Assembly: GCA_016190145.1 (NCBI GenBank)
Contig: JACPRD010000189.1
Coordinates: forward strand, 64 to 64,063
Reading direction: 5' to 3'
Length of the DNA stretch: 64,000 nt
DNA from: Planctomycetota bacterium
GTDB lineage: Bacteria; Planctomycetota; MHYJ01; WSZJ01
In this document: piece by piece, positions 1-23,044 of the stretch
How the letters are laid out: each line of letters opens with the position of its first letter
Position numbering within the stretch: the stretch's first letter is position 1
The notes under the pieces: generated by a model
Seen by the model: only the letters and a program-made list of their open reading frames with translations
What the model was told of the DNA's origin: nothing
The model's database searches: none
Program-made: the position numbers and the translations under genes

Positions 1-155
1 GCAGGCCCACCGGCCGAGGGACGTGGCCCGATGACGCCGGGGCAACCACCCGCAGGGGGAAGGTGCCAATTCCCACCCGTGAAAGACGGGGGAGATAAGA
101 GAAGGAACCGCTTCGCCGACCCTCCTTCTCCTCCCCTGGAATCGAGGGTTTTTTC

Positions 156-1472: not shown

Positions 1473-2449
1473 CGGGCGCGCCGGACCTGACGAAGGCGTT
1501 CCGGGTGACGGCGGGGCCGGAGCCCGCCACGAACCGGAAGGTCCTGAAGAAGCTCGCCCCCGCGAAGGCGGGCGACCGCGGGCGCGTGCGCGCGCCGGCG
1601 ACGACGTCGAACATCGGCCCGGGGTTCGACGCGTTCGGGCTCGCGCTCACGCTCGAGAACGAGGCGACGTTCGAACCGGCGGAGCGCTGGGAGGTGCTGA
1701 TCGCGGGCGAGGGCTCGGAAGTCCTCCCCACGGACTCCACCAATCTCATCGCGCTGGCCTGCGCGCTGGGGCTCGAGGCGTGGAAAACCCCGATGAAGGC
1801 GCGCATCACCTGCGTGAATCGCGTTCCGCTGGGCCGCGGGCTCGGCTCGAGCGCCGCGGCGATCGTGACGGGCCTCGCCGGGGCCGCGGCCCTCTCGGGG
1901 CGCGAGCCGGGGCGGGACGAGATCCTCGAGCTCGCTCTCACTCTCGAACCCCATCCCGACAACCTCGCGGCCTGCCTCTGGGGCAGCTTCACCATCGCGG
2001 CGCCGCCCCACGTCGTCACGCTGCCGTGGCCCGACGCGCTCCGCATCGTCGCCGCCATTCCGGACTTCGCCGTCGAGACCGCGAAAGCCCGACAGATCCT
2101 GCCGAAGCAGGTGTCCCTGCAGGACGCCGTCCATAACATCGCCCGCGCCGCCACGCTCGCCGCGGCGGTCGCGAGCGATTCGTTCATTCCGACGTGGGCC
2201 CTCGACGACCGACTTCACCAGGACCACCGGGCCCCGCTCGTGCGGGCCTGGCCGGCCGCGCGCGAAGCCGCGATCCGCGCGGGCGCGCTGGGGGCGGCGA
2301 TCAGCGGAAGCGGCCCGACGGTCGTGGCGTTCACGCAGGACCACGCGCCGGACGTCGGAAAGGCGATGGTCGCGGAATTCGTGAAGGCCGGCGCCAGGGC
2401 CCGGGCGCTTGAGCTCGGCCCGGCGGCCGGGGCCAGCTGGAAACGGTAA
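1469..2449 (+). CDS. thrB: homoserine kinase (GHMP family)
   Basis: Internal ATG (residue 110 of ORF 1142..2449) overlaps the hom stop. Motifs TSNIGPGFDAFGLAL and PLGRGLGSSAAA. The upstream part of the ORF is Arg/Pro-rich shadow sequence. Confidence 0.85.
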   Translation: MTGAPDLTKAFRVTAGPEPATNRKVLKKLAPAKAGDRGRVRAPATTSNIGPGFDAFGLALTLENEATFEPAERWEVLIAGEGSEVLPTDSTNLIALACALGLEAWKTPMKARITCVNRVPLGRGLGSSAAAIVTGLAGAAALSGREPGRDEILELALTLEPHPDNLAACLWGSFTIAAPPHVVTLPWPDALRIVAAIPDFAVETAKARQILPKQVSLQDAVHNIARAATLAAAVASDSFIPTWALDDRLHQDHRAPLVRAWPAAREAAIRAGALGAAISGSGPTVVAFTQDHAPDVGKAMVAEFVKAGARARALELGPAAGASWKR

Positions 2450-2462
2450 GGAGATCACCAGG

Positions 2463-3692
2463 ATGTCCAACGACAGGCTCAACGGACTGAAATGCCGCGA
2501 GTGCGGCACGATCACGACGATCGGCCCGAAGTACGTCTGCGAGGACTGCTTCGGCCCGCTCGAAGTCGTCTACGACTACGACGCGATCCGGTCGCGGATC
2601 TCGCGCGAGAAGATCGCCGCGGGGCCGCATTCGATCTGGCGCTACCTGGACCTGCTGCCGGTCAGCGAGGACTGCATCGTCACGCTTCACGAGGGCATGA
2701 CCCCCCTCGTCGCTGCCCCGCGCCTCGGAAAGGAAATCGGCCTCCGAAATCTCTTCATCAAGAACGACTCCGTCAACCCCACCTTCTCGTTCAAGGACCG
2801 GGTCGTCGCGTGCGCCGTGTCGCGCGCGAAGGAATTCGGATTCGATACGGTGTCGTGCGCTTCCACCGGAAACCTCGGCGGCTCGGTCGCGGCGTTCGGG
2901 GCGGTGAGCGGGATGCGGCCGGTGGTGTTCGTTCCGGCGGACCTCGAGCCGTCGAAGATCGTGGGCATCGGCGCGTACGGGCCGACGCTGATCGCGGTGG
3001 ACGGGAGCTACGACGACGTGAACCGGCTGTGCGCCGAGATTTCCGCGACGAAGAAATGGGCGTTCGTGAACATCAACCTGCGGCCGTTCTACAGCGAGGG
3101 GTCGAAGACGCTGGGGTACGAGGTCGCGGAGCAGCTCGGCTGGCGCGCGCCGGACCACGTCGTGGTGCCGATCGCGAGCGGGTCGCTTCTGTGCAAGATC
3201 CACAAGGGCCTGCACGAGTTCGAGACGCTGGGCCTGATCGGGCCCGTGAAGACGCGGATCTCGGGCGCGCAGGGCTCGGGCTGCTCGCCGGTCGCGACGG
3301 CGTTCGCCGCGGGGCGCGACGAGATCGTTCCGGTCCGGCCGGCGACGATCGCCAAGTCGCTCGCGATCGGCAATCCGGCCGACGGGATTTACGCGCTCGA
3401 CATCATCCGGAAGACCGGCGGCGCGGCGGACTCCGCGACCGATCCGGAGATTATCGACGCGATGAAACTGCTCGCGCGGACCGAGGGGATCTTCACGGAA
3501 ACCGCCGGCGGGGTGACGGTCAGCGTGCTCCGGAAACTCGCCACGCGGGGGAAGATCGGGCGCGACGAGGTCACCGTCGCGTACATCACCGGTAACGGCT
3601 ACAAGACGCAGGAAGCGGTCGCGCCGACGCTTCCCCAGCCTCCCGTCATCCGCCCGACCGTGAAGGAGGTCGAGCGGGTCCTTGGTTCGTGA
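2463..3692 (+). CDS. thrC: threonine synthase with N-terminal zinc ribbon
   Basis: ATG after an AAGGAGA SD. CRECG...CEDC ribbon, PLP-lysine motif FSFKDR, STGNLG. Third gene of the hom-thrB-thrC operon. Confidence 0.9.
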   Translation: MSNDRLNGLKCRECGTITTIGPKYVCEDCFGPLEVVYDYDAIRSRISREKIAAGPHSIWRYLDLLPVSEDCIVTLHEGMTPLVAAPRLGKEIGLRNLFIKNDSVNPTFSFKDRVVACAVSRAKEFGFDTVSCASTGNLGGSVAAFGAVSGMRPVVFVPADLEPSKIVGIGAYGPTLIAVDGSYDDVNRLCAEISATKKWAFVNINLRPFYSEGSKTLGYEVAEQLGWRAPDHVVVPIASGSLLCKIHKGLHEFETLGLIGPVKTRISGAQGSGCSPVATAFAAGRDEIVPVRPATIAKSLAIGNPADGIYALDIIRKTGGAADSATDPEIIDAMKLLARTEGIFTETAGGVTVSVLRKLATRGKIGRDEVTVAYITGNGYKTQEAVAPTLPQPPVIRPTVKEVERVLGS

Positions 3693-6039: not shown

Positions 6040-6369
6040 CTACCAGTTGCCCAGAGTGCGGTCGAAGTGCAGCCAGAGCACGCGCGAGTACTGCCGCAGG
6101 GCGGGGAAGAGGAGCGCGAGAAACCCGCCGGTGGCCGCGACGCAGTGCCAGTAGGCGACGCCCGCGTACAGGAGCCCGAGAAACACCGGCGTCCCGATCG
6201 CGAGCGTCATGCCGTAGCTGAAGTAAATGGCGCCCATGAAATACCCCGGCTCCGGGAAGTACCCGAATCCGCACTCCGGACACCGCGCGTGCATCCGGAA
6301 CAGCCCGGCGAACACCGCTCCCTTCAGGCACTGCGGGCAGCGCCGCCTCAGGATCGCCCCGAACCTCAT
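6040..6369 (-). CDS. DUF983 family membrane protein
   Basis: CPQC...CPEC zinc-ribbon pair followed by two TM helices, which is the typical DUF983 architecture. Its ATG directly abuts the rhodanese TAG. Confidence 0.75.
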   Translation of the reverse strand: MRFGAILRRRCPQCLKGAVFAGLFRMHARCPECGFGYFPEPGYFMGAIYFSYGMTLAIGTPVFLGLLYAGVAYWHCVAATGGFLALLFPALRQYSRVLWLHFDRTLGNW

Positions 6370-6723
6370 CTATCCGGCCTTCTCCACCACGGGAAACCCC
6401 GCCTTCTCCCAGGCCGCGATCCCGCCGTCCAGGACCGCGGCGTTCGGCCACCCGTCCGCCACGTACTGCGCCGCCAGACCGGCGGCGCTCACGTCGTTCG
6501 GTCAGCCTCAGTAGAAGACGACTTCCGTGTCTTTCTCGATCCGCGGCGCCCGCTTCTCGAACTCCGGCATCGAGATCGACCCGTCCAGGTGCGATTCGTC
6601 CCAGTCGTCCTGGTCGTAAATGCAGACCAGCACCGTCTTCTTCGCCCCCGAAATCAGCCTCTTCCGCACCTCCTGCACGCTCACCCGTCTCGGTCCGGCC
6701 GCCGGCTTGACGCTTCCCGCCAT
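6370..6723 (-). CDS. single-domain rhodanese/sulfurtransferase with two in-frame TGA codons (putative selenocysteines) in the active-site loop
   Basis: ORF 6508..6723 ends ...EVVFY at TGA. Reading on in frame gives TGA-GGC-TGA and then 43 sense codons (PNDVSAAGLAAQYVADGWPNAAVLDGGIAAWEKAGFPVVEKAG) up to TAG at 6370..6372. The 117-residue product matches rhodaneses with a Y-C-x-C-P-N-[DE] loop, and both Cys positions are TGA. Confidence 0.6.
6461..6494 (-). promoter_or_regulatory. SECIS-like hairpin downstream of the two TGA codons
   Basis: mRNA ACGU-GA-GCGCCGCC-GGUCU-GGCGGCGC-AGU-ACGU. It has an 8-bp GC upper stem, a 5-nt GGUCU loop, an internal loop and a 4-bp lower stem. The loop begins 21 nt after the second UGA and 27 nt after the first. 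Confidence 0.5.
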
Positions 6724-6747: not shown

Positions 6748-7971
6748 CTACCACCACCTCGCCTCATCGTACCCGCCCCGGATCAACCGGTGCACCGCCT
6801 GCCCCAGAATCTCCCTTCCCCACTTGAACCGCGCGTACAACCGGATGAACGCGAGGATCTCCGCGATCACCTTCGCCCGTTCCCCGATCCCCAGCGGCCC
6901 GAGCGCCTTCCAGAAGTCGGCTTCGTGCGGACGTCCGAAGGCGATCTGAAGCGGATTCCACTGGTCGCTGCACCGGCGTACTTCGCTCGCGATGTGCCTC
7001 CGGTACACCGCCTGCGCGGGTTCGCCGTGGAAGGCCGCCTCGACGATCGACTCGCCGCAGATCGCACCCGAGTGGAGCGCCGCCGACATGCCTTCGGCCA
7101 TCATGTTGAGGAACCCCGCGGCCTGCCCCGTGATCAGGACGCGGCCGCGCCCGAACACGTACCGGTTCACGAGCGACAGCCCGAAATTCTCGCCACAACC
7201 TTCCGAATCCTGCGCCGGCCCGAGCCGCACGCCGTGGCGCTTCCCCAGGTACTTCACCACGTTTGCGTGCGCCCGGTCGAAGTTGTGGCCGACGTCGAAC
7301 CCCACGCCGACGATCTGCCGGCCGTCGCGCGCGTGGCTCCAGGTGTAGTGGCCGAGCGCGGGGTGGAACCAGAAATGGAAGTAGCGGGTATCGAGCGGGC
7401 AGGCCTCGATCTGGTGGAACTTCTGGCCGACCATGAACCACGGGATCGACGCCTGGTACTCCGGGTAGACGGCCTTCACGACCATCGACGTCGGCCCATC
7501 CGCCCCCACGACCCAGCGCGCGCGGAATTCCTGCGGGCGGCCGCGGTGAGTCGCGTGCACGACGACCCCGCCGTCCCCCGCCTCCAGCCGCGCGAACGAC
7601 GTCTCGTCCTGCACCTCCACGCCGCTCCGCCGGATCGCCCACCAGTCCGACTGCTTGCGGTACAGGTGCGGCGTCGGCCCACCGAAAAAATCGATGTCGA
7701 TCGACGGCGCGCTCGGGAAATGGAACGTCACCCCCGTGCAGCTCGTCGGCTCGTGAAGGACTTCGCGGGGAAGCGGGCCGAAATTCTCGATCAGGAACCG
7801 GTGCCCGCGCGGCGAGAGGATCCCGCTGCAGACCTTGTGGCGCGGCAGCTTCTTCCGCTCGATCACCACCGTCTCGAGCCCCGCGTCCACCAGTCGCTTC
7901 GCACAGGCGGCCGCCGACAGGCTCGCGCCGACGACGAGGACGTCCACGTTTCGCGGGGAGGGGGAGATCAT
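6748..7971 (-). CDS. FAD-dependent oxidoreductase (geranylgeranyl reductase-like family)
   Basis: 407 aa. N-terminal dinucleotide-binding DVLVVGASLSAAACAKRL...VVIERK, with family-typical length and CSGILSP region. Confidence 0.75.
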   Translation of the reverse strand: MISPSPRNVDVLVVGASLSAAACAKRLVDAGLETVVIERKKLPRHKVCSGILSPRGHRFLIENFGPLPREVLHEPTSCTGVTFHFPSAPSIDIDFFGGPTPHLYRKQSDWWAIRRSGVEVQDETSFARLEAGDGGVVVHATHRGRPQEFRARWVVGADGPTSMVVKAVYPEYQASIPWFMVGQKFHQIEACPLDTRYFHFWFHPALGHYTWSHARDGRQIVGVGFDVGHNFDRAHANVVKYLGKRHGVRLGPAQDSEGCGENFGLSLVNRYVFGRGRVLITGQAAGFLNMMAEGMSAALHSGAICGESIVEAAFHGEPAQAVYRRHIASEVRRCSDQWNPLQIAFGRPHEADFWKALGPLGIGERAKVIAEILAFIRLYARFKWGREILGQAVHRLIRGGYDEARWW

Positions 7972-8391: not shown

Positions 8392-8769
8392 TCAGCCGGT
8401 GCTGCGTTTGTAGCAGCGGAGATCGCGGTTGAGGTTCTCGGCTTCCAGGGAGGGCAGCCCGGTCATGAGCAAGGTGCCGGTCCCGCGGAAGTATCCCCGC
8501 GCGCCGGATGCGAACCCGAGGGCGGGAAGGAGGAAGGCGGGCGCGAGGAGGACGGACAGGGCCGCCCAGCGGCGGCGGCCGAGGGCGGAGTGGGCGACGT
8601 GCGCCGCGCCGATGCCGACGGCCCAGACGCTTCCGCAGAAGGGCGCGCAGAACACGGCGCCCCAGGCGACGAAGATCGGCCACATCCAGACGCGCGGGCG
8701 TTCCGCGCGATCCGTGTGTGTCACGACGCCGGCGAAGGGTTTTGAGGGATCGGGGGTGGCGGCGGGCAT
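8392..8769 (-). CDS. hypothetical membrane protein
   Basis: Internal ATG (MPAATPDP...) of ORF 8392..8952. Three hydrophobic helices. The ORF part upstream of that ATG lies in the repeat element. Confidence 0.5.
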   Translation of the reverse strand: MPAATPDPSKPFAGVVTHTDRAERPRVWMWPIFVAWGAVFCAPFCGSVWAVGIGAAHVAHSALGRRRWAALSVLLAPAFLLPALGFASGARGYFRGTGTLLMTGLPSLEAENLNRDLRCYKRSTG

Positions 8770-10136: not shown

Positions 10137-11762
10137 CTAAAACACGACGTCGGGATTCAGGATCATCGCCGGATCGGCCTGGCGCTTGAACTCGAGCTGG
10201 CGGTCCACCACCGCGTCGCCGAACACGCGGCGGATGTATCCCTTCATCGACCCCCCGAACCGGTAGTAGCTCGTCCGCATCTCGACGCCCACGTCGTAAA
10301 TCGCGTTCTTGAAGGACTGCAGGTGGTCGCGGCTGTACTCGCCGGGCTCGAACATCGGCTCGAACTCGCAGCCGTAGGCCCAGTCGCGCGCGTCGGGAGG
10401 GATGCAGGACATCTCGTAGCGCGGCCGGTTCCCGGACAGGCGGATCGCCACGCAGTAGAGCGTGTAGTGCGCAAAGTACTTCCGCATCACCCGGTTGCCC
10501 CGCAGGATCGCTTCGATGAACTTCTCCTCGCTCGTCGCCAGGTCCGGGATCACCATCGTCCGGTTGCCCCAATGGCGCCACACGGCCCGCGAGAACACCA
10601 CCGTGCGGTCGAACATCTTCCCGTCGCGCAGGTGCTCGGGCCTCTCGAACTCCGGCAGCAGCAGCTTCTTCCGGCGGTACAGCCACAGCGCTTCCTCGAT
10701 CCGCCACGGCCGGAGCGCGTAGAACCCAGCGGCGCGCACCGCGAACTGCATCTCGGTGAGGCCGCGCAGCTTCGGACGGACGTTCGCGAAGAAGTCCTTC
10801 TCGCGCTCCTCGGAGTCGAACGCGAACAGGAGGTTGTTCGCGCGGTCCTTCATCGTGAGGATGCCCGAATAATCGGTCGCGTCGGAGCGGACGACGACGA
10901 TGAGGTCTTCCATGGCGGTTCTGAGGTCGTCATAGAAGAGGTAGTGCATGCGGCACGGTGTGTACGGCCGGACGCGCATGGTGGCTTCCGTGACGACGCC
11001 GAACTGGCCGTAGCCGAGGAGGACGCGCTCGAACAGCTCCGGATTGCGGTCTTCGGAGCACTCGACGATCTGCCCGGTCGGGGTCACGACTTCCATCGCG
11101 ACGCACTGGTCGGCGCTGCACCCGTGCCGGCAGGCGTTGACGTCGATTCCGCCCACCGCGAGCGTGCCGCCGACGGAGGACGTGAAGTTGAGCGGCGCCG
11201 AGATGTAATCGAGCCCCTGCCGGCGCAGCACCTCGGCCATGTCGTGCCAGAACATCCCGCCCTGGACGCGCGCGAGCATCTTCTCGCGGTCGACCCACAC
11301 CATCCGGCTCATGCCGGTCATGTCGAGCTGGAGCCCGCCGAACGCGACCGATTCGCCCTCGGTCGTGAGCCCGCCGCCGCGCGTCGTCACCGGCACGCGC
11401 CTCGCCTGCGCGGCGCTCAGCACCGCCGCCACCTGCTCCGCCGACCGCGCCGTTACCACCCCGTGCGGCATCCCGAACGCCAGCCCGCCCGCGTCCGTCA
11501 CGAACGCCGCCCGCGTGCCCTTCTCCTCCCGCACGTCCACGCCGGCGCGCGCCAGGTCGGACACGAAGGCGTCCCACGAAGCGCCGTTCCAGCGCGAAGG
11601 ATTGGTCTGGACGCGCGGGATGCCGACGAGCGAATCGGGACCGACGGGGTCCGGCGGGATGGTCCCGCGCGCCTGAGGCTCGACCGGCAGTTCCCTCCCG
11701 CCGTCGCGATGCGCGGTGGCGGCGGGAGCGGCCTGGCGGAGGGTGCGGGGATCGAGAAGCAT
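10137..11762 (-). CDS. FAD-binding oxidoreductase (FAD_binding_4 / PCMH type)
   Basis: 541 aa. FAD-binding core VTTRGGGLTTEGESV ... GGTLAVGGIDVNACRHG ... GYGQFGVVTEATMRV. Confidence 0.8.
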   Translation of the reverse strand: MLLDPRTLRQAAPAATAHRDGGRELPVEPQARGTIPPDPVGPDSLVGIPRVQTNPSRWNGASWDAFVSDLARAGVDVREEKGTRAAFVTDAGGLAFGMPHGVVTARSAEQVAAVLSAAQARRVPVTTRGGGLTTEGESVAFGGLQLDMTGMSRMVWVDREKMLARVQGGMFWHDMAEVLRRQGLDYISAPLNFTSSVGGTLAVGGIDVNACRHGCSADQCVAMEVVTPTGQIVECSEDRNPELFERVLLGYGQFGVVTEATMRVRPYTPCRMHYLFYDDLRTAMEDLIVVVRSDATDYSGILTMKDRANNLLFAFDSEEREKDFFANVRPKLRGLTEMQFAVRAAGFYALRPWRIEEALWLYRRKKLLLPEFERPEHLRDGKMFDRTVVFSRAVWRHWGNRTMVIPDLATSEEKFIEAILRGNRVMRKYFAHYTLYCVAIRLSGNRPRYEMSCIPPDARDWAYGCEFEPMFEPGEYSRDHLQSFKNAIYDVGVEMRTSYYRFGGSMKGYIRRVFGDAVVDRQLEFKRQADPAMILNPDVVF

Positions 11763-11877
11763 GAGGGCTCCGCATTACAGCAGCTTGGGGATGCCCGGAC
11801 AAGGGGGGCGAGTACGGTTCTTTTGGCGCGAGCCGCCGGGGCTGCTACGCTTCCCCCCCCCTGCAACGGAGGCACCG

Positions 11878-14800
11878 ATGGAACTGCACCAGCTCGAAGC
11901 GTTCGCCCTCGCCCGGGATCGCGCGAAGGCCCTCGAACAGCTCATTCCCGGGACGGACGAGTTCTATTTCCACCAGTGCCTCGTCCACGAGCAGAAGGGC
12001 GATCTCAAGGCGGTCGCCGACGTCATGAAGACATGGAACGACCGGTGCGGCGAAACCGCCCTCTTCCAGGAAATCCGGAACCGCCTGAACCTGCTCCGGT
12101 ACGAGGAGGCGCCGGCGGAGACGCTGGAGTACCTGCGCTATCACCTGGGGCTCGAGTTCAACCACGAGCGGGCCGTGGAAGGGCGGCGGACGAAGCTCCC
12201 TTCGAAGCTCGATCCACGGGCCGTGAGTCGTGACGCAGTGCGTCAACTCGGGCTGGCCCACAGCAATGGCAGCGACCTCGCGGGGTTCACGGACGCGGCG
12301 CTCGAGTGGCTGGCGGACGAATCGCACGACGGCCACCGCCTGCGGAGCCTTCTCGGGCGCCTCCGCCGGCCCGACGTCGCGAAACTGCCGGAAATGGTCG
12401 CCGCGGAGCTCAAGGACCGTCATACGAGCGGGTTCGGAGCCATCCCGATCCACAATCTCATGCTCCAGGAGCAGCTCGAGAAACTCCGGAAACTCGTGCC
12501 CGACCTCATCCAGAACGAAGCGTTCGTGTACGCCTGCCTTCTCAAGCTGCGCCCCGGTCCCGACGTGGACCTGCAGAACGACCCGGCGGAGCGCGAGAAG
12601 TACCTGGCGGCGCTGTGGGATTTCGTGAAGGGGCTCGCGCCGAAGTTCAACCCGCTGAAGGCGCACGTGCTCTACCACAGGCTCGACCACGACCGGCGGG
12701 CCGGGGCCATGGACCGGGTGCGATTCACCGAGTACCTGAAGCTCCCGCGGCAGGTCGGATACGCAAATGCCGAGTACCTGAAGCAGTTCAGGCGCGACGA
12801 TTCGCCGTTCGGGCTTGGGCAGGACTACCGGCACGTAACGCTTCAGGCCGCCGTGAACGACGACGAGGAGCTCGTGCGCCACTACCTGGGGACCTTCTTC
12901 GCGGGCGCGAAGGACTTCAAGCCGTTCGACACGTGGATCGACGCCGCGTTCCTGCGGGAGGTCTTCGCTTCGACGAAACTGCTCCAGGGAACCGGGGATC
13001 CGGGCGCCTGGACCGCGATGATCAACGATCCGGCGGCCTGCCAGGCGCTGAAGGAGCGGGTGGAGATCGGGTTCGCGCTCACGAACCGGACGTGGTTCGC
13101 GGCGGGCGATCCGGTGACGCTCGACGTGGACGTGAAGAACGTCCCGACGCTGGTCGTGAAGGTGTTCGAGATCAACGCGCTCAACTACTTCCTCGCGAAC
13201 GGCCGCGACGTGGACACGAGCATCGACCTCGACGGGCTGGTGGCGAGCGAGGAGCAGACGCACCGGTACGCGGAGGCCCCGATCCGGAGGGTGAGGCGGA
13301 CGTTCCCTTTCCCGGCGCTGGCCGCGCCCGGCGCTTACATCGTGGAGTTCATCGGCGGGGGAATCAGCTCGCGGGCGCTGGTCCGCAAAGGGCGGCTGCG
13401 GTTTCTCGAGCGGGCCGGATCGGCGGGCCACGTATTCACGGTGCTGGACGAGAACCGCGAGGTTCTCAGGGATGCGTCCGTCTGGCTGGGCGGGCGCGAG
13501 TACCGCGCGGAGGCCGACGGCTCGATCGCGGTCCCGTTCAGCACGCACCCGGGCCGGCAGACGGTCCTGCTCCGGCACGGGAACCTCACGACGCTCGAGG
13601 CGTTCGACCACCAGGCGGAAACCTACGCCCTGACCGCGGGCCTCTACGTCGACCGCGAGAGCCTTATCCGGAAACGTGAAGCGCAGGTCGTACTGCGCCC
13701 GACGCTTCAGGTGAACGGCGCACCCGCGAGCCTGTCGCTCCTCGAAGAGCCGGCGCTCGTCATCCAGTCCACCGACCGCGACGGAGTGAGCTCCAGCCTC
13801 GAGGTCCGCGACTTCAAGGTGCAGGAGGACGCCGAGTCCGTGCACGCGTTCCAGGTCCCCGAGAACCTCGCCTCTATCTCTTTCTCCTTCCGCGCGAGGG
13901 TCCAGAGCCTCTCGCAGAGCCGGAAGGTCGATCTCTCGGACGGAAGCGGCTTCCAGCTGAACGGCATCGACGCCGAAGCGACGATCGAGGATCTGCACCT
14001 GGCGCGGACGGCGGCCGGCTACGTCGTGACGCACTGCGGCAAGTCGGGCGAGCCGAAGGCGGGCACCGCGCTCGCCTTCAGCTTCCGGCACCGCGACATC
14101 ACGCCCGCGATCGACGTCACGCTCCAGACCGACGCGGAAGGCCGCGTCGAGCTCGGCCATCTCCGGGACATCCTGGAAATCACCGCTTCCACGCCCGCGG
14201 GCGTGACGGAGACCTGGACGCCGCCGCGCGACCGGTTCCGGGCGGAGCCGGCGGTGCACGTCCGGGCGGGGGAGGCGTTCCGGGTGCCGTTCATGGAAGA
14301 GGCGCCACTCGGGGGCGCCGGGTACCCGGACGCGCACGGGCGGGAGGCCGCGCCGGGGGCGGGGGTCGAGCACCGGGACGTCTCGCTGTTCGACCGGGTC
14401 GGCGACACCTTCGTGCGCGACCATTTCAAGGCGCTCGCGCGGAAGGACGGATACCTGGAGGTCGCCGGCCTTCCGGCGGGCGACTACGACCTGCTCCTCA
14501 AACGCGACGGCGTCGCCGTCACCGTCCGCGTGGCGCCCGGCGCGGACCGCGACGGGTGGGTGGCGGGGGAGAAGCGCCACCTCGAGCGGCACAACGCGAG
14601 GCCGCTTCAGATCGGCGACGTCACCGCCAGAAAGTCGGACGTCCGGATCTCGGTCGGCAACGCGCACGGCCGCGCGCGCGTGCACGTGTTCGGGACGAGG
14701 TTCGTGCCGGCGTATTCGTGTTTCGACGAGCTGGGCCGGGCGCCCGGGAGCGGCGCGAGGGCGGTGGAGGTCTGGAAGGCCGCCTCACATTACGTCTCCG

Positions 14801-17800
14801 GCCGCGACATCGGCGACGAGTACCGGTACATCCTGGAGCGGAAGCAGTCGGAGAAGTTCGCGGGGAACACGCTCGCGCGGCCGGGGCTGCTGCTCAACCC
14901 GTGGGCGATCCGGAGCACGGAGACGGCGACGCAGGAGGCCCAGGCGGGCGGGGCGTACGGCGCCTCGGCGCAGCCGGTGATGTCAGCGGCGGCGTGTGCG
15001 CCGCCCGAGCCCGGGATGCGGGAAGGCGCGGCGGGAGCGTTCGCGAACCTGGATTTCCTCGCGAACCCCGCGGCGGTGCTTCTCAACCTCAGGCCCGATG
15101 ACAAGGGCGTGGTGACGGTTCCGCGAGAGGCTTTCGCGCACGCGAACTCGCTTCGGATCGTGGCGATCGACGCTCTCAACACGGTCTGCCGGGACGTTCT
15201 CCTTCCGGAAGTCCGCACGCCGCACGAGGACCTGCGCCTCCGGCTCGCGCTCGACGCAGACCGGCACTTCAGCGAGAAAAAGCAGGTCTCCGTCCTCGCC
15301 CCCGCGCAGCCGCTCGAGATCGCCGATATCACGACATCGAAGACCGAGGTGTACGACACGCTCGCGCGGGTGTACCGCCTGTACGCGACGCTCTCGAACA
15401 ATCCGGAGCTGACGCAGTTCGGGTTCGTGCTCCGGTGGCCGGGGATGACGGAGGAAGAGAAGCGCGCGAAGTACAGCGAGTTCGCGTGCCACGAGCTGAG
15501 CTTTTTCCTGTCGCGCAAGGACCCCGAGTTCTTCCGGCGCGTGGTCCAGCCGTATCTGCGCAACAAGATGCACAAGACGTTCATGGACCGGTACCTGCTG
15601 GAAGGGGACCTTTCCGAGGACCGGCGCCCCTGGGCGTTCGGGAGGCTGAACATCGTCGAGCGCATCCTGCTCGCGCGGCGGATCGACGACGAGGGCGACC
15701 CGGTCGCGCGCCACGGCCGCGATCTCAACGACCTCCTGCCGCGCGACCTCGAGCGCGCGGAGCACCTGTTCGGGTCGGCGATCCTGGGAAGCGCTCTCGA
15801 GACCGGCGACAAGCTGGGGATCGCAGGCCAGGCGGCGAGCGTCGAGAAGTCGGCGCTGGCGCGCCTCGACGAATCGCTCCAGATGCCGATGGGCGCCGCG
15901 ATGGCGGCCCCGGCGTCGATGGCGCCCAAGGGCGGGCGCCGCAGCCCCGCGAAGGAGAGCCGGTCGAAGAAGATGAAATCCGAATCGCCGCGCGACGAGG
16001 AGGCCGATTCGTGCGTTTCGGAAGATATGGCGGAAATGCGCGGGGCGGGGATGGACGACTTCGATCGCGGCGAGAAGGACGCGCGCTCCCGCGGGAAGAT
16101 GCGCGCCTTCTACCAGAAGCTCGACAAGACCCAGGAGTGGGCCGAGAACAACTACTGGCATCTTCCGATCGAGCAGCAGGGTCCGGAACTGGTCACCATC
16201 AACCCCTTCTGGCGCGATTTCGCCGCCCATCGCGGCGGGGAGCCCTTCCTCTCCCCGAATCTCGCGCACGCCTCGCGGAGCTTCGCCGAGATGATGCTCG
16301 CGCTTGCGGTGCTGGATCTGCCGTTCGAGGCGGAGAAGCCGGCGGTGATGTTCGAGGGCGCCCGAATGAAGCTGGCCTGCGCGGCGCGCGCGGTCGCCTT
16401 CCACAAGGAGATCAAGCCCGTCGAGCCGGCGGCCGAGCGCGTGCCGATCCTGGTGAGCCAGAACTACTTCAGGGACGACGACCGGACGCGTTACGAAAAC
16501 GACGAGGAAGTCGACAAGTACGTCACGGGCGAATTCCTCGTGAACGTCGTTTACACCTGCCAGGTCGTGCTCACGAACCCGACGTCCACGAACCAGAAAC
16601 TGGACCTCCTGCTCCAGATCCCGACGGGCTCGATCCCGGTCCGGTGCGGCTTCGTCACGCGCGGGAGGCACGTCGAGCTGTCCTCCTATGCCACGGAATC
16701 GATCGAATACGCGTTCTACTTCCCGGCTCCCGGCACCTTCGCGCACTTCCCGGTCCACGTCGCGAAGAACGAGCAGCTGATCGCCTCCGCCGAGCCCGCG
16801 CGGCTCAAGGTCGTGCGCGAGCTCAGCGCCGTCGACAAGACGTCGTGGGCCTGGCTCTCGCAGAACGGCGACGAGAAGGACGTCCTCGCCTGGATGGAGA
16901 AGAACAACGTCGACCGCCTCGCCGCCCCGGACGGCGACGGCGAAGTCGGCCTCGAGCTCATCGCCTGGCGCGTGCGCGACCGCGGTTTCTACGGGAAGTG
17001 TCTCGCGCTGCTCGCCCGGCGGCACATCTACAACAACACGCTCTGGGCCTACAGCGTCCACCACAAGGACGTCGCGAACATCCGCGAGTTCCTCCTCCAC
17101 CAGGGTTCCTTCCTCGACCGCTGCGGCCTGTGGCTCAAGAGCCCGCTCGTGACCATCGACCCCGTCGCACGCCGCCGCTACCAGCACCTCGAGTACGCCC
17201 CGCTCGTGAACGCCCGCACCCACAAGCTCGGCGCGCGCCGGAAAATCCTCAACGACCGCTTCGGCCTTCGGTACGCCCAGTTCATGGGCGCCCTGCGCTA
17301 CCGCGCCCGCCTGTCGGACGCCGACCTCCTCGCCGTCACGTACGACCTCTTCCTCCAGGACCGCGTCGCCGAAGCCCTCGAATCGTTCGACCGGATCGAC
17401 GCGCGCAACCTCGAGACCTGGCTGCAGTACGACTACCTCAAGGTCTACGCCGAGTTCTTCCGGGAGAATGCCGCCGGCGCGCGCGAGATCGCGGAGCGCC
17501 ACAAGGACGAGCCCGTCGACCGCTGGCGCCATCATTTCCGCAACGCCCTCGCCCAGATCGACGAAATCGCCGGCGCCGCCGCGCAGGTCGTCGACGACAA
17601 GGACCGCGACCAGCGGCAGGCGAAACTCGCAGCGACGGAACCGGACTTCGACTTCACCGTCGAAAAGAAAACCGTCACGCTCAACGTCCAGAACCTCGCC
17701 GCCGTCCGCGTGAACTACTACCGGATGGACATCGAGCTCCTCTTCTCCCGCCAGCCCTTCGTCCAGCAGCAGTCCGACCAGTTCTCGTACATCCGGCCCA

Positions 17801-18213
17801 ACCGGAGCGAAGAAGTCCGCGTGCCCGCCGGCCGGAACCAGTTCGCGTTCGACCTGCCGGCCGAATTCCACGGGGCGAACGTGATCGTCGAGCTCGTCGC
17901 CGAAGGCCGCCGCAAGTCGCAGGCGTACTACGCGCACGAACTGCTCGTCCAGGTCGTCGAGTCCTTCGGCCAGGTCCGCGTCGCGCTGCAGGGAACGAAC
18001 CGCCCGCTGCCGAAGACCTACGTGAAGGTGTACAGCCGGATGAAGGGCGGCGAAGTGAAGTTCTACAAGGACGGCTACACCGACCTGCGCGGCGTCTTCG
18101 ACTTCACGTCGCTCAACACGAACGAGCTCGACTACGTGGACCGGTTCTCGATCCTCGTGCTGCACGAGAAGCACGGGGCGGTGATACGGGAGGCGGGGGT
18201 GCCGAAACGATAG
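11878..18213 (+). CDS. giant (2111 aa) cytoplasmic-looking protein of unknown function with helical N-terminus and multiple beta-sandwich-like modules
   Basis: Uninterrupted ORF with GC3-rich codons. ATG 11878 (MELHQLEAF...) was chosen inside ORF 11716..18213. No signal peptide or catalytic motif recognised. The C-terminal KFYKDGYTDLRGVFDF resembles prealbumin-like/CarboxypepD_reg-type folds. Confidence 0.75.
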   Translation: MELHQLEAFALARDRAKALEQLIPGTDEFYFHQCLVHEQKGDLKAVADVMKTWNDRCGETALFQEIRNRLNLLRYEEAPAETLEYLRYHLGLEFNHERAVEGRRTKLPSKLDPRAVSRDAVRQLGLAHSNGSDLAGFTDAALEWLADESHDGHRLRSLLGRLRRPDVAKLPEMVAAELKDRHTSGFGAIPIHNLMLQEQLEKLRKLVPDLIQNEAFVYACLLKLRPGPDVDLQNDPAEREKYLAALWDFVKGLAPKFNPLKAHVLYHRLDHDRRAGAMDRVRFTEYLKLPRQVGYANAEYLKQFRRDDSPFGLGQDYRHVTLQAAVNDDEELVRHYLGTFFAGAKDFKPFDTWIDAAFLREVFASTKLLQGTGDPGAWTAMINDPAACQALKERVEIGFALTNRTWFAAGDPVTLDVDVKNVPTLVVKVFEINALNYFLANGRDVDTSIDLDGLVASEEQTHRYAEAPIRRVRRTFPFPALAAPGAYIVEFIGGGISSRALVRKGRLRFLERAGSAGHVFTVLDENREVLRDASVWLGGREYRAEADGSIAVPFSTHPGRQTVLLRHGNLTTLEAFDHQAETYALTAGLYVDRESLIRKREAQVVLRPTLQVNGAPASLSLLEEPALVIQSTDRDGVSSSLEVRDFKVQEDAESVHAFQVPENLASISFSFRARVQSLSQSRKVDLSDGSGFQLNGIDAEATIEDLHLARTAAGYVVTHCGKSGEPKAGTALAFSFRHRDITPAIDVTLQTDAEGRVELGHLRDILEITASTPAGVTETWTPPRDRFRAEPAVHVRAGEAFRVPFMEEAPLGGAGYPDAHGREAAPGAGVEHRDVSLFDRVGDTFVRDHFKALARKDGYLEVAGLPAGDYDLLLKRDGVAVTVRVAPGADRDGWVAGEKRHLERHNARPLQIGDVTARKSDVRISVGNAHGRARVHVFGTRFVPAYSCFDELGRAPGSGARAVEVWKAASHYVSGRDIGDEYRYILERKQSEKFAGNTLARPGLLLNPWAIRSTETATQEAQAGGAYGASAQPVMSAAACAPPEPGMREGAAGAFANLDFLANPAAVLLNLRPDDKGVVTVPREAFAHANSLRIVAIDALNTVCRDVLLPEVRTPHEDLRLRLALDADRHFSEKKQVSVLAPAQPLEIADITTSKTEVYDTLARVYRLYATLSNNPELTQFGFVLRWPGMTEEEKRAKYSEFACHELSFFLSRKDPEFFRRVVQPYLRNKMHKTFMDRYLLEGDLSEDRRPWAFGRLNIVERILLARRIDDEGDPVARHGRDLNDLLPRDLERAEHLFGSAILGSALETGDKLGIAGQAASVEKSALARLDESLQMPMGAAMAAPASMAPKGGRRSPAKESRSKKMKSESPRDEEADSCVSEDMAEMRGAGMDDFDRGEKDARSRGKMRAFYQKLDKTQEWAENNYWHLPIEQQGPELVTINPFWRDFAAHRGGEPFLSPNLAHASRSFAEMMLALAVLDLPFEAEKPAVMFEGARMKLACAARAVAFHKEIKPVEPAAERVPILVSQNYFRDDDRTRYENDEEVDKYVTGEFLVNVVYTCQVVLTNPTSTNQKLDLLLQIPTGSIPVRCGFVTRGRHVELSSYATESIEYAFYFPAPGTFAHFPVHVAKNEQLIASAEPARLKVVRELSAVDKTSWAWLSQNGDEKDVLAWMEKNNVDRLAAPDGDGEVGLELIAWRVRDRGFYGKCLALLARRHIYNNTLWAYSVHHKDVANIREFLLHQGSFLDRCGLWLKSPLVTIDPVARRRYQHLEYAPLVNARTHKLGARRKILNDRFGLRYAQFMGALRYRARLSDADLLAVTYDLFLQDRVAEALESFDRIDARNLETWLQYDYLKVYAEFFRENAAGAREIAERHKDEPVDRWRHHFRNALAQIDEIAGAAAQVVDDKDRDQRQAKLAATEPDFDFTVEKKTVTLNVQNLAAVRVNYYRMDIELLFSRQPFVQQQSDQFSYIRPNRSEEVRVPAGRNQFAFDLPAEFHGANVIVELVAEGRRKSQAYYAHELLVQVVESFGQVRVALQGTNRPLPKTYVKVYSRMKGGEVKFYKDGYTDLRGVFDFTSLNTNELDYVDRFSILVLHEKHGAVIREAGVPKR

Positions 18214-22881: not shown

Positions 22882-22906
22882 GCCGCGCGCCCCGCCTTCC
22901 CTTGCT

Positions 22907-23044
22907 CTCGGAGTTTGACAAGAAATCGGCCCGGGATGCTCCATCGGCCGGCAAGTGGGTTCCCGGTTACCGGGATCTCACGCGCCAGCCGATTCCGCCC
23001 CCCGGTCCGACCGCACCGGAGATCGAATCTGTCTCACGCTCTCA
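22907..23044. repeat. dispersed structured repeat (same family as 26812..26930 and 27226..27349) between ECF sigma and kinase genes
   Basis: CGGAGTTTGACAAGAAATCGGCCCGGGATGCTCCATCGGCCGGC and GCCAGCCGATTCCGCCCCCCGGTC match the arms of the 26.8-27.3 kb elements. The terminal GATCGAATCTGTCTCACGCTCTCA matches 26772..26795. Confidence 0.6.

What the first reader, a model, noticed from the sequence alone, without database searches (positions are those of the whole stretch)
6370..6723. Rhodanese gene with both active-site cysteines (Y-C-x-C-P-N-D loop) encoded by in-frame TGA plus a SECIS-like hairpin: candidate double-selenocysteine sulfur/selenotransferase
Seen in sequence: the annotated 71-aa ORF stops at TGA right after ...EVVFY. 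The same frame continues TGA-GGC-TGA-CCG-AAC-GAC... for 43 further sense codons (PNDVSAAGLAAQYVADGWPNAAVLDGGIAAWEKAGFPVVEKAG). It ends at a TAG that directly abuts the ATG of the next gene. Established knowledge: the joined 117-residue product looks like a complete single-domain rhodanese of the subgroup with the active-site loop Y-C-x-C-P-N-[DE]-x-S followed by ...GG(I/L)xAW. The two TGAs fall exactly on the two Cys positions. Starting 21 nt after the second UGA (27 nt after the first) lies a hairpin with an 8-bp GC stem (GCGCCGCC/GGCGGCGC), a GGUCU loop, an internal loop and a 4-bp lower stem. As far as I recall, this fits the bacterial SECIS spacing window and the G-rich apical loop of E. 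coli fdhF. Rhodanese-related sulfurtransferases have been reported as a selenoprotein family in metagenomes, but a U-x-U loop would be unusual. TGA is an ordinary stop elsewhere in the window (for example hom), so genome-wide recoding is unlikely. Inference: Sec incorporation is more likely than a pseudogene, because two independent nonsense mutations falling exactly on the two catalytic Cys codons with an intact downstream frame is improbable.
Basis: partly seen in the sequence, partly recalled or inferred. Interest (0 to 1): 0.8.

Follow-up and report, generated by a model that had tools for sequence, protein, structure and literature searches.

The report
Rhodanese gene with two selenocysteine codons
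A small sulfur-transfer (rhodanese) gene annotated as a 71-residue stub almost certainly reads through two UGA codons as selenocysteine with the help of one conserved RNA hairpin, and it belongs to a widespread, apparently undescribed Sec-x-Sec branch of a known selenoprotein type.

Summary
On the minus strand (6723..6370) a rhodanese ORF reads ...EVVFY-TGA-GGC-TGA-PND... and continues in frame for 43 codons to a TAG that abuts the next gene's ATG. An 8-bp hairpin with a GGUCU loop follows.

It is not a pseudogene. Thirty independent loci keep both TGAs and an intact downstream frame. That frame is under purifying selection (dN/dS 0.11-0.39).

Homologues show C-x-C, C-x-U and U-x-U at the same two positions, but never U-x-C.

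The hairpin sits at an invariant distance: its loop starts 21 nt after UGA2 and 27 nt after UGA1. Its 5-bp core pairs in 49 of 49 distinct sequences, with compensatory changes at synonymous sites. It meets the published bacterial SECIS criteria for both UGAs.

The first UGA occupies the canonical catalytic Cys of rhodanese.

The closest described family is the C-x-U "rhodanese-related (seleno)protein" (NF041203), scored at 59 bits against a cut-off of 115. Two recent reviews list no U-x-U form.

Untested: the Sec machinery of this MAG (none in the window) and the biochemical function.

Verdict: real, and a new variant of a known kind.

The parts
6370..6723 (-). Complete recoded rhodanese CDS: 117 codons (M1...Y71, U72, G73, U74, P75...G117) plus TAG. 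GenBank annotates only codons 1-71, as hypothetical protein HYY18_20065.
   Evidence: Downstream frame under purifying selection.
6508..6510 (-). UGA no. 1 (codon 72). It aligns with the canonical catalytic Cys of rhodanese domains.
   Evidence: 'vvfyCG' aligns with 'fyCG' of YnjE and 6mxv. Homologues carry Cys here (C-x-U and C-x-C forms).
6502..6504 (-). UGA no. 2 (codon 74). This is the Sec position of the described C-x-U rhodanese selenoproteins.
   Evidence: C-x-C homologues carry Cys here.
6468..6488 (-). SECIS-like hairpin: 8-bp stem GCGCCGCC/GGCGGCGC with apical loop GGUCU (6480-6476). The family-conserved 5-bp core is 6485-6481 paired with 6475-6471.
   Evidence: Published bSECIS criteria quoted.
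6464..6510 (-). Stretch from UGA1 to the 3' side of the hairpin, matched by the family covariance model.
   Evidence: 58.9 bits, E 1.4e-14, the only significant hit in the window.
6748..7971 (-). Upstream co-oriented gene, 24 nt away: FAD-dependent oxidoreductase (geranylgeranyl-reductase-family-like). A probable operon partner only in the closest relatives.
   Evidence: Synteny only with L001 and L002. The operon is an inference.
6040..6369 (-). Downstream gene whose ATG abuts the rhodanese TAG: a DUF983-like small protein with a Cys-rich N-terminus.
   Evidence: Synteny only with L001 and L002.

Best explanation
The gene encodes a 117-residue single-domain rhodanese whose short active-site loop is Y-U-G-U-P-N-D.

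Both in-frame UGA codons are decoded as selenocysteine by the SelB/Sec-tRNA pathway. One SECIS hairpin inside the coding sequence directs both. Its G-rich apical loop starts 21 nt after the second UGA and 27 nt after the first.

The first Sec replaces the canonical catalytic Cys of rhodanese. The second sits two residues later in a loop that is two residues shorter than the classical CX4R loop.

The lineage most likely evolved C-x-C, then C-x-U (when the SECIS arose, locked to the second position), then U-x-U. The first position could be converted because it lies within reach of the existing SECIS.

Shown here: conserved UGAs, an intact and constrained downstream frame, Cys/Sec pairs, and a covarying hairpin that fits the bSECIS model.

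Inferred: actual Sec insertion. Also inferred is the chemistry, namely a vicinal selenol pair acting as a redox or chalcogen-transfer centre (persulfide or perselenide carrier, possibly cycling through a Se-Se bond).
For: 1. Thirty independent loci read TGA-NNN-TGA with an intact rhodanese C-terminus. They are the window, L001-L003, L005-L010, L013-L022, L037, L046, L051, L053, L066, L073, L088 and L091-L093. Identity to the window falls as low as about 29-40%.

2. dN/dS of the 37 codons after the UGAs is 0.11-0.39 in close pairs. The N-terminal part gives 0.05-0.34.

3. Homologues carry Cys at both positions: C-x-C in P0092, P0096, P0102, P0105, P0106, P0108 and L079. In the loci, C-x-U occurs in 40, U-x-U in 24 and U-x-C in 0.

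4. In an NJ tree, U-x-U appears as one large clade plus four isolated cases next to C-x-U sisters, for example L051 beside L067. This suggests repeated Cys-to-Sec change at position 1.

5. The hairpin lies at an invariant position in an ungapped alignment of 56 sequences. The five core pairs are paired in 49 of 49 distinct sequences. Pair 33-45 is C-G in 26 and U-A in 20, and pair 36-42 is C-G in 41 and U-A in 6. Both pairs join third codon positions. The covariation score is 0.319 against 0.183 for shuffles (0 of 500 reach it) and at most 0.175 for slid registers. RNAalifold finds the same stem independently.

6. The loop is GGUCN in 43 of 49 sequences, and UGA2 is followed by C in 44 of 49.

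7. The published bSECIS criteria (PMC13188914) are a 3-9 nt loop, a 4-16 bp stem, G in the first two loop positions, 16-37 nt from UGA to loop, and MFE of -7.5 kcal/mol or lower. The first four are met for both UGAs. MFE was not computed for the isolated window hairpin, but columns 28-50 of U-x-U members average -13.3 kcal/mol.

8. Four homologues without a UGA in the loop (three C-x-C, one C-A-E) lack this hairpin at the corresponding place.

9. A covariance model built without the window hits it at E 1.4e-14.

10. TGA is a normal stop in this genome.

11. The Sec-decoding trait is documented in several Planctomycetes (PMC4807772). One C-G-U family member lies next to a Sec-type selD.
Against: No selA, selB, selD or tRNA-Sec lies in the 64-kb window, and the rest of the MAG could not be searched. 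The organism's ability to decode Sec is therefore assumed, not shown.

There is no experimental evidence (75Se labelling, mass spectrometry) for any member.

In E. coli, recoding is 30-40% per UGA (PMC4513850). From my own recollection of the fdhF literature, the UGA-to-hairpin distance there is tightly constrained. One hairpin serving two UGAs 6 nt apart should then be inefficient unless this SelB/SECIS system tolerates variable spacing.

The hairpin lies in codons for a conserved S-A-A-G-Q/L-A-A peptide, so part of its sequence conservation is protein-level. The synonymous-site covariation argues against this being the whole story.

The function is not constrained by gene context, which is not conserved.
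Confidence: 0.8

Rival explanations
1. Pseudogene, or a genuinely truncated 71-residue protein as annotated. The downstream frame would be a relic.
For: GenBank and the gene callers annotate only the 71-aa ORF.
Against: Both TGAs and the downstream frame are kept in 30 loci, down to about 30-40% identity. Downstream dN/dS is 0.11-0.39. The stops fall exactly on the two Cys positions of C-x-C homologues. Half a rhodanese domain would lack its active-site loop and the last helix and strand.
Confidence: 0.02
2. The UGAs are read through, but not as Sec. Either a near-cognate tRNA (Trp, Cys or Arg) reads them with the hairpin as a stimulator, or a SelB-like factor delivers a Cys-charged tRNA-Sec-like tRNA.
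For: The Sec machinery was not demonstrated for this MAG. UGA followed by C is a leaky context (from my own recollection). The second option, Cys-inserting tRNA-Sec-like systems, is also recalled from the literature and was not checked here.
Against: The hairpin fits the bSECIS model, including the G-rich loop. The same loop with one UGA is a catalogued selenoprotein type. UGA/Cys alternation at redox-type positions is the standard signature of Sec. A related member sits beside a Sec-type selD.
Confidence: 0.08
3. Sec is inserted, but the first UGA mainly acts as a selenium-sensing attenuator. Most ribosomes terminate there, and full-length U-G-U protein is made only when Sec-tRNA is abundant. 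The double UGA would then be regulatory rather than catalytic.
For: Per-UGA efficiency in E. coli is 30-40%, so two UGAs would compound the loss. The SECIS spacing is locked to UGA2, not UGA1.
Against: Position 1 is the canonical catalytic residue, which points to a catalytic reason for Sec there. U-x-U arose several times and is maintained in a large clade. This reading is not exclusive of the main explanation.
Confidence: 0.1
4. Genome-wide reassignment of UGA (code 4 or 25), or an assembly or sequencing artefact.
For: One database protein (P0010) shows W-G-W at this loop.
Against: P0010 is simply TGA-GGC-TGA translated with code 4 (L088). In the window, 22 of 43 well-supported ORFs end in TGA with complete Pfam domains. 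The same codons are found in independent ENA, JGI, NCBI and Logan assemblies.
Confidence: 0.01

Closest known systems
Rhodanese-related (seleno)protein, NCBIfam NF041203 'rhodanese_LYCAU'. [quoted passage not shown]
   Same: Best NCBIfam hit. Same single rhodanese domain, the same short Y-C/U-x-U-P loop, Sec at the second position, and the same type of in-CDS hairpin 21 nt downstream.
   Different: The score is 59 bits against a cut-off of 115, and the C-x-U relatives sampled here also score only 52-82 bits. The first position is Sec instead of Cys, giving two Sec rather than one. The middle residue is Gly (22 of 24) rather than Ala (27 of 32).
Rhodanese-related sulfurtransferase selenoproteins with a single Sec at the canonical catalytic Cys (forms 1, 2 and 4: UxxS, UxxG; Sargasso Sea and GOS families).
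   Same: Sec at the canonical catalytic position of a rhodanese domain. An example found here is L011 (a Planctomycetota MAG), VFY-U-GGGSRS.
   Different: Those keep the classical six-residue loop with Arg and have one Sec. This protein has a loop two residues shorter, no Arg, and a second Sec at +2.
Multi-Sec redox motifs: bacterial UxxU proteins (Prx-like, metal-binding, FmdB-family), TsoB UxxxxU, and eukaryotic SelL (UxxU diselenide).
   Same: Two closely spaced Sec residues in one motif, presumably decoded with one downstream SECIS in the bacterial cases.
   Different: Different folds. The spacing here is one residue (UGAs 6 nt apart), which is closer than any two-Sec motif written out in the 2026 review table; the strings UxU and UGU are absent from that review. 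The TsoB model scores only 16 bits against a cut-off of 805.
E. coli fdhF-type bacterial SECIS (bSECIS consensus model).
   Same: A stem-loop inside the CDS just downstream of the UGA. The apical loop is small, with G in its first two positions followed by U. The spacing lies within 16-37 nt, and UGA2 is followed by C.
   Different: There is no sequence similarity to fdhF. The lower stem is not conserved. One element would have to serve two UGAs.

Membership tests
Bacterial selenoprotein gene (Sec-UGA plus bSECIS) | In-frame UGA aligned with Cys in homologues (Cys/Sec pair) | tested here: met
   Both positions. C-x-C in P0092, P0096, P0102, P0105, P0106, P0108 and L079; C-x-U in 40 loci.
Bacterial selenoprotein gene (Sec-UGA plus bSECIS) | UGA conserved in other organisms, with an intact and selected downstream ORF | tested here: met
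   30 U-x-U loci. Downstream dN/dS 0.11-0.39.
Bacterial selenoprotein gene (Sec-UGA plus bSECIS) | bSECIS model: 3-9 nt loop, 4-16 bp stem, G in the first two loop positions, 16-37 nt from UGA to loop, MFE of -7.5 kcal/mol or lower | tested here: met
   5-nt GGUCU loop, 8-bp stem, 21 nt (UGA2) and 27 nt (UGA1). Criteria quoted. MFE was not computed for the isolated window hairpin; alignment columns 28-50 of U-x-U members average -13.3 kcal/mol.
Bacterial selenoprotein gene (Sec-UGA plus bSECIS) | Structure supported by covariation | tested here: met
   Core pairs 100% paired in 49 distinct sequences. Compensatory C-G/U-A changes at synonymous sites. 0 of 500 shuffles reach the score. RNAalifold agrees.
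Bacterial selenoprotein gene (Sec-UGA plus bSECIS) | selA, selB, selC (tRNA-Sec) and selD present in the same genome | not testable with these tools
   None in the window. The window covers nearly the whole contig (64,103 bp), and other contigs of the MAG cannot be addressed.
Bacterial selenoprotein gene (Sec-UGA plus bSECIS) | Selenium shown in the protein (75Se labelling or mass spectrometry) | not testable with these tools
   Requires an experiment.
Rhodanese homology domain (PF00581) | Profile match above the gathering score | tested here: met
   41.9 bits against 22.2, residues 17-107. PDB rhodaneses are also hit.
Rhodanese homology domain (PF00581) | Catalytic Cys at the start of the active-site loop, after the central beta-strand | tested here: met
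   The position is occupied by UGA1 (Sec) and aligns with the Cys of 'FYCG' in YnjE and 6mxv.
Classical catalytic rhodanese (thiosulfate sulfurtransferase) | Six-residue CX4R/CRxGxR active-site loop | tested here: not met
   The loop is U-G-U-P-N-D. The alignment to PDB rhodaneses needs a 2-residue gap, and there is no Arg.
NF041203 rhodanese_LYCAU (equivalog) | Score at or above the curated cut-off of 115 bits | tested here: not met
   59 bits for the window protein. Other U-x-U members score 50-56 bits and sampled C-x-U members 52-82 bits.
NF041203 rhodanese_LYCAU (equivalog) | Y-C-A-U motif: Cys at position 1, a single Sec at position 3 | tested here: not met
   The motif here is Y-U-G-U.
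TsoB rhodanese/DsbD fusion selenoprotein (NF045694) | Score at or above the 805-bit cut-off, and the fusion architecture | tested here: not met
   16 bits. The protein is a single 117-residue domain.

The most novel reading that the evidence does not exclude
The U-G-U loop may be a dedicated selenium-handling centre. The two selenols, one at the canonical rhodanese nucleophile position, would carry or relay selenium (or sulfane sulfur) as a Se-Se(-Se) species, cycle through a vicinal diselenide, and feed selenophosphate synthetase.

Translation of the motif would require one bacterial SECIS to recruit SelB twice within two codons. That would be the tightest natural double recoding reported, and a direct test of how rigid UGA-to-SECIS spacing really is outside E. 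coli.

The only hints for the selenium-delivery part are one C-G-U member lying 200 nt upstream of a Sec-type selD (L031) and the old in vitro rhodanese-perselenide proposal (cited in PMC8538045).
Probability: 0.15. Interest if true: 0.8.

Novelty: new variant of a known kind. Interest (0 to 1): 0.55.

Why it matters
1. It corrects an annotation class. At least 35 protein clusters (at 50% identity) in public databases are 60-70-residue stubs that are really full rhodanese selenoproteins with two Sec. About 66 more are C-x-U forms truncated two residues later.

2. By its motif it would count as an additional subfamily under the classification of the catalogue of 119 prokaryotic selenoprotein subfamilies, which splits subfamilies by Sec position or motif. 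It has Sec both at the canonical catalytic site and at a second loop position.

3. It provides a natural system for asking how one bacterial SECIS can serve two UGA codons 6 nt apart.

4. It allows a direct comparison of C-x-C, C-x-U and U-x-U versions of the same catalytic loop, which bears on the question of why Sec is used instead of Cys.

5. It suggests that soil and groundwater Planctomycetota have larger selenoproteomes than their annotations show.

Tried and rejected
I used the N-terminal 71-aa profile instead.
- The first genome-contig scan, with close relatives only, found nothing. A broader alignment with X at the Sec positions worked.
- The 629-639-aa ORFs next to the gene in L010, L018, L020 and L009 were suspected to be SelB by size. 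They are ABC-F ATPases.
- tRNA-Sec was not found by ARAGORN in the window or in 38 loci. Rfam found only a SAM riboswitch in the window.
- tblastn with E. coli SelA, SelB and SelD against the window and 424 kb of loci gave only the L031 selD.
- Conserved gene context was not found. The FAD-oxidoreductase/rhodanese/DUF983 order holds only in L001 and L002. Other members sit next to RskA anti-sigma, DoxX or ABC-F genes.
- A conserved lower SECIS stem was not supported.
- I tested whether U-x-U members have a longer or stronger hairpin than C-x-U members. There is no difference once GC content is matched.
- I considered separate translation of the 40-aa GTG ORF (6492-6370). The GTG exists only in the window, L001 and L002, so this was rejected.
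- The literature search for 'LYCAU' returned only noise. The search for rhodanese plus 'two selenocysteine' returned nothing.
- Structure prediction was not run. The recoded sequence cannot be submitted, and the tool returns no coordinates from which a Se-Se distance could be measured.
Full report
**1. What is in the sequence**

The feature lies on the minus strand.
- An ATG at 6723, preceded by GGAGAG, opens a frame of 71 sense codons ending ...DTEVVFY.
- Then come TGA (6510-6508), GGC and TGA (6504-6502).
- Another 43 sense codons follow (PNDVSAAGLAAQYVADGWPNAAVLDGGIAAWEKAGFPVVEKAG).
- The frame ends at TAG (6372-6370), which touches the ATG (6369) of a 109-aa DUF983-like ORF.
- With the two UGAs read as Cys, the 117-residue product matches Pfam Rhodanese end to end: residues 17-107, E 1.4e-10, 41.9 bits against a cut-off of 22.2.
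- The hairpin GCGCCGCC-GGUCU-GGCGGCGC occupies 6488-6468. The surrounding 76 nt fold to -38.5 kcal/mol, z = -2.68 against dinucleotide shuffles.
The stem begins 13 nt after UGA2, and it is the loop that begins after 21 nt (27 nt from UGA1). The 'lower stem' is specific to this sequence and is not a family feature.

The source is a GenBank MAG, 'Planctomycetes bacterium'. There the 71-codon stub is annotated as hypothetical protein HYY18_20065. The window covers almost the whole 64,103-bp contig.

**2. TGA is a normal stop in this genome**

- Of 43 ORFs with coding-type GC3, 22 end in TGA.
- These include homoserine dehydrogenase (156-1472), a PALP enzyme (2409-3692), MsrA, QueC and urocanase, all with complete Pfam domains.
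- Genome-wide recoding of UGA is excluded.

**3. Relatives keep both UGAs**

- A word-indexed protein search found only three hits, all stubs of 69-71 residues.
- Their contigs (L001 and L002, 85% and 81% identical over the joined product) read TGA-GGY-TGA and continue in frame to the same C-terminus.
- An HMMER search with the N-terminal profile against 1.84 billion cluster representatives gave 119 hits:

| Class | Number of representatives |
|---|---|
| End exactly at ...FY (stop at position 1) | 35 |
| End at ...FYC[AGST..] (stop at position 3) | 66 |
| Full-length Cys forms | about a dozen |

- I fetched DNA for thirteen of the position-1 stubs. This included three of the weakest hits and one entry that a gene caller had translated as W-G-W with code 4. 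All thirteen are U-x-U.
- Scans of GTDB species genomes and JGI metagenomes added three Planctomycetota or uncultured MAG loci (L008-L010) and 73 metagenome loci.

Altogether 30 independent loci carry U-x-U.
- The middle residue is Gly in most, Ala in L037 and L092, and Ser in L073 and L091.
- Forty loci carry C-x-U, one carries C-T-C, and none carries U-x-C.
- Full-length C-x-C proteins exist: P0092, P0096, P0102, P0105, P0106 and P0108.
- Both UGAs therefore form Cys/Sec pairs.

**4. The downstream frame is translated**

- Nei-Gojobori dN/dS for the 37 codons after the second UGA is 0.11-0.39 in twelve close pairs.
- The 50 codons before the first UGA give 0.05-0.34.
- There is no conserved internal start. 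The GTG that creates a 40-aa ORF in the window is present only in the window and its two closest relatives.

**5. The hairpin is a conserved RNA structure in the place expected for a bacterial SECIS**

- Fifty-six sequences (24 U-x-U, 32 C-x-U) align without a single gap from the Tyr codon to 50 nt past UGA2. The loop is therefore always 21 nt from UGA2.
- For the 8-bp stem of the window, the five loop-proximal pairs are paired in all 49 distinct sequences.
- Pair 33-45 alternates C-G (26) with U-A (20), and pair 36-42 alternates C-G (41) with U-A (6).
- These four columns are third positions of Ala, Ala/Val, Leu/Gln and Ala codons. The compensatory changes are therefore synonymous or nearly so, and protein selection cannot explain them.
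- The covariation score is 0.319, against 0.183 +/- 0.015 in shuffles (0 of 500 reach it) and at most 0.175 in slid registers.
- RNAalifold independently returns the same 5-bp stem and nothing else.
- The loop is GGUCN in 43 of 49 sequences, and UGA2 is followed by C in 44 of 49.
- Four homologues without a UGA in the loop (three C-x-C, one C-A-E) do not have this element at the corresponding place. At the protein level the S-A-A-G-Q/L-A-A motif that encodes it is not kept in Cys forms.
- The published bSECIS consensus requires a 3-9 nt loop, a 4-16 bp upper stem, G in the first two loop positions usually followed by G or U, 16-37 nt from UGA to loop, and MFE of -7.5 kcal/mol or lower (PMC13188914). 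The geometric criteria are satisfied for both UGAs with the one hairpin; MFE was assessed only on alignment columns 28-50, which average -13.3 kcal/mol in U-x-U members.
- A covariance model built from 45 family members, without the window, L001 or L002, finds 6464-6510(-) at 58.9 bits (E 1.4e-14). Nothing else in the 64 kb scores above 11 bits.
- Stem length and stability do not differ between U-x-U and C-x-U members once GC content is matched. The same element evidently serves both forms.

**6. Where the two residues sit**

- Alignments to solved rhodaneses (YnjE 3ipo/2wlr, 6mxv) place the first UGA on the canonical catalytic Cys: 'vvfyCG' against 'fyCG'.
- They also show that the loop is two residues shorter than the classical CX4R loop and lacks the Arg.
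- The second UGA is two residues further into the loop.
- No solved structure among the hits has a C-x-C-P loop.

**7. Evolution**

- An NJ tree of 60 joined proteins shows one large U-x-U clade (20 sequences, including the window and the Planctomycetota MAGs).
- Four isolated U-x-U sequences sit next to C-x-U sisters, for example L051 next to L067.
- U-x-C is absent, and the hairpin is locked to the second position.
- Together these support the order C-x-C, then C-x-U, then U-x-U, with position 1 converted repeatedly once a SECIS was in reach.
- The tree rests on about 100 residues, so its resolution is low. The close L051/L067 pair is nevertheless unambiguous.

**8. Mechanism**

*Shown:* two conserved in-frame UGAs on Cys positions, a constrained downstream frame, and a covarying hairpin that fits the SECIS model.

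*Inferred:* the SelB-GTP-Sec-tRNA complex is recruited by the hairpin and decodes UGA1, with 27 nt to the loop. Two codons later it, or a second complex, decodes UGA2, with 21 nt to the loop.

- E. coli recodes about 30-40% per UGA (PMC4513850), so yield may be modest unless this system is more efficient.
- From my own recollection, the fdhF SECIS tolerates little change in spacing. If that holds generally, this gene argues that other bacterial systems are more permissive.

*Chemistry (inference):* the rhodanese nucleophile and a neighbouring resolving residue are both selenols. This suits persulfide or perselenide transfer, or a reductase-type cycle through a Se-Se bond.

**9. Context and function**

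- Neighbours are conserved only among the closest relatives: a geranylgeranyl-reductase-like FAD protein upstream and a DUF983-like gene downstream.
- Other U-G-U loci lie beside RskA-type anti-sigma factors, DoxX or ABC-F ATPases.
- One C-G-U member (L031) lies 200 nt upstream of, and co-oriented with, a selD homologue. That selD has its own in-frame UGA, TCG-U-AAKIGP.
- This shows the Sec trait in that organism. It also recalls the in vitro proposal that rhodanese perselenide donates selenium to selenophosphate synthetase (Ogasawara and Stadtman, cited in PMC8538045).
- With n = 1 this is a lead, not evidence.

**10. Sec machinery**

- No tRNA was found in the window.
- No SelA, SelB or SelD domains appear among 43 ORFs, and tblastn with the E. 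coli proteins gave no hit in the window.
- The rest of the MAG cannot be reached with the tools provided.
- Complete Sec-insertion gene sets are documented in several Planctomycetes (PMC4807772).
- Another Planctomycetota groundwater MAG carries a classical rhodanese with Sec at the catalytic site (L011).
- The trait is therefore plausible for this organism but unproven.

**11. Comparison with what is known**

- Rhodanese-related sulfurtransferases have been listed as selenoproteins since the Sargasso Sea study (PMC1088965).
- Reviews from 2022 and 2026 list the following rhodanese forms: UxxS, UxxG, CxU (NF041203) and TsoB (UxxxxU).
- The 2026 review defines subfamilies by Sec position or motif. 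The strings UxU, UGU and 'diselenide' are absent from the 2026 review.
- NF041203 is the best NCBIfam hit, but at 59 bits against a cut-off of 115. The C-x-U relatives sampled here also fall below the cut-off, at 52-82 bits. The whole FY[CU]x-U group is therefore broader than that equivalog.
- No full-length protein annotated with U was returned by either protein search.

I therefore rate this a new variant of a known kind. The fold is known, the Sec-bearing loop is known, and the recoding mechanism is known. What is new is a second Sec at the canonical catalytic position, which gives the tightest two-Sec spacing among the motifs listed in that review.

**12. Verdict**

- Confidence that both UGAs encode Sec is about 0.8.
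- The main gaps are the unverified Sec machinery and the unknown function.
- Interest is moderate to high for selenoprotein and recoding specialists, and modest beyond that field.

Noticed in passing
L031:96-392 and L031:602-1189: A C-G-U member of the family lies about 200 nt upstream of, and co-oriented with, a selD homologue (45% identical to E. coli SelD, E 1e-46). That selD has its own in-frame TGA in the N-terminal loop (TCG-U-AAKIGP). This may link the rhodanese family to selenophosphate synthesis, but it is a single case.
   Followed up: partly
L011:10001-10312 (Planctomycetota groundwater MAG JACPWG01): A classical rhodanese with TGA at the catalytic Cys (VFY-U-GGGSRS). The same MAG also encodes a C-A-C member of the short-loop family (P0092, L087). 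L078 and L084 show similar single-Sec classical forms.
   Followed up: partly
P0010 / L088:355-705: A database protein reads W-G-W at the active-site loop. Its DNA is TGA-GGC-TGA, so the gene was called with genetic code 4. This artefact could hide selenoproteins in metagenome protein catalogues.
   Followed up: yes
L075:5001-5309: A homologue with C-A-E in place of C-x-U still has a hairpin-like element at roughly the SECIS position. It may be a lineage that lost Sec.
   Followed up: no
L009:8974-9996, L022:1028-2050, L010:6366-6899: In several U-G-U loci the gene is preceded by an RskA-type anti-sigma factor, and in L009 and L022 also by a DoxX membrane protein. From my own recollection, DoxX partners with a rhodanese-type sulfurtransferase in mycobacterial thiol homeostasis.
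   Followed up: partly
window 9-93 (+): A SAM (S-box) riboswitch (Rfam RF00162, 53 bits) lies directly upstream of homoserine dehydrogenase (156-1472) and a PALP enzyme (2409-3692).
   Followed up: no
window 43841-45526 (-): A Pup-ligase family protein (PF03136, E 1.8e-71) in a Planctomycetes MAG. From my own recollection, pupylation genes are mainly known from Actinobacteria and a few other phyla.
   Followed up: no
window 19972-22944 (-) and 52799-55441 (-): Two large fusions of a Ser/Thr protein kinase domain with an FGE-sulfatase (SUMF1-like) domain. There is also a 2165-aa ORF at 11716-18213 (+) that was not characterised.
   Followed up: no
window 8392-8394 (-): A TGA stop is immediately followed in the same frame by the ATG of the next ORF (186-aa and 130-aa ORFs, both with coding-type GC3). 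It was flagged by the in-frame-TGA scan. It looks like an ordinary abutting gene pair, not recoding.
   Followed up: partly
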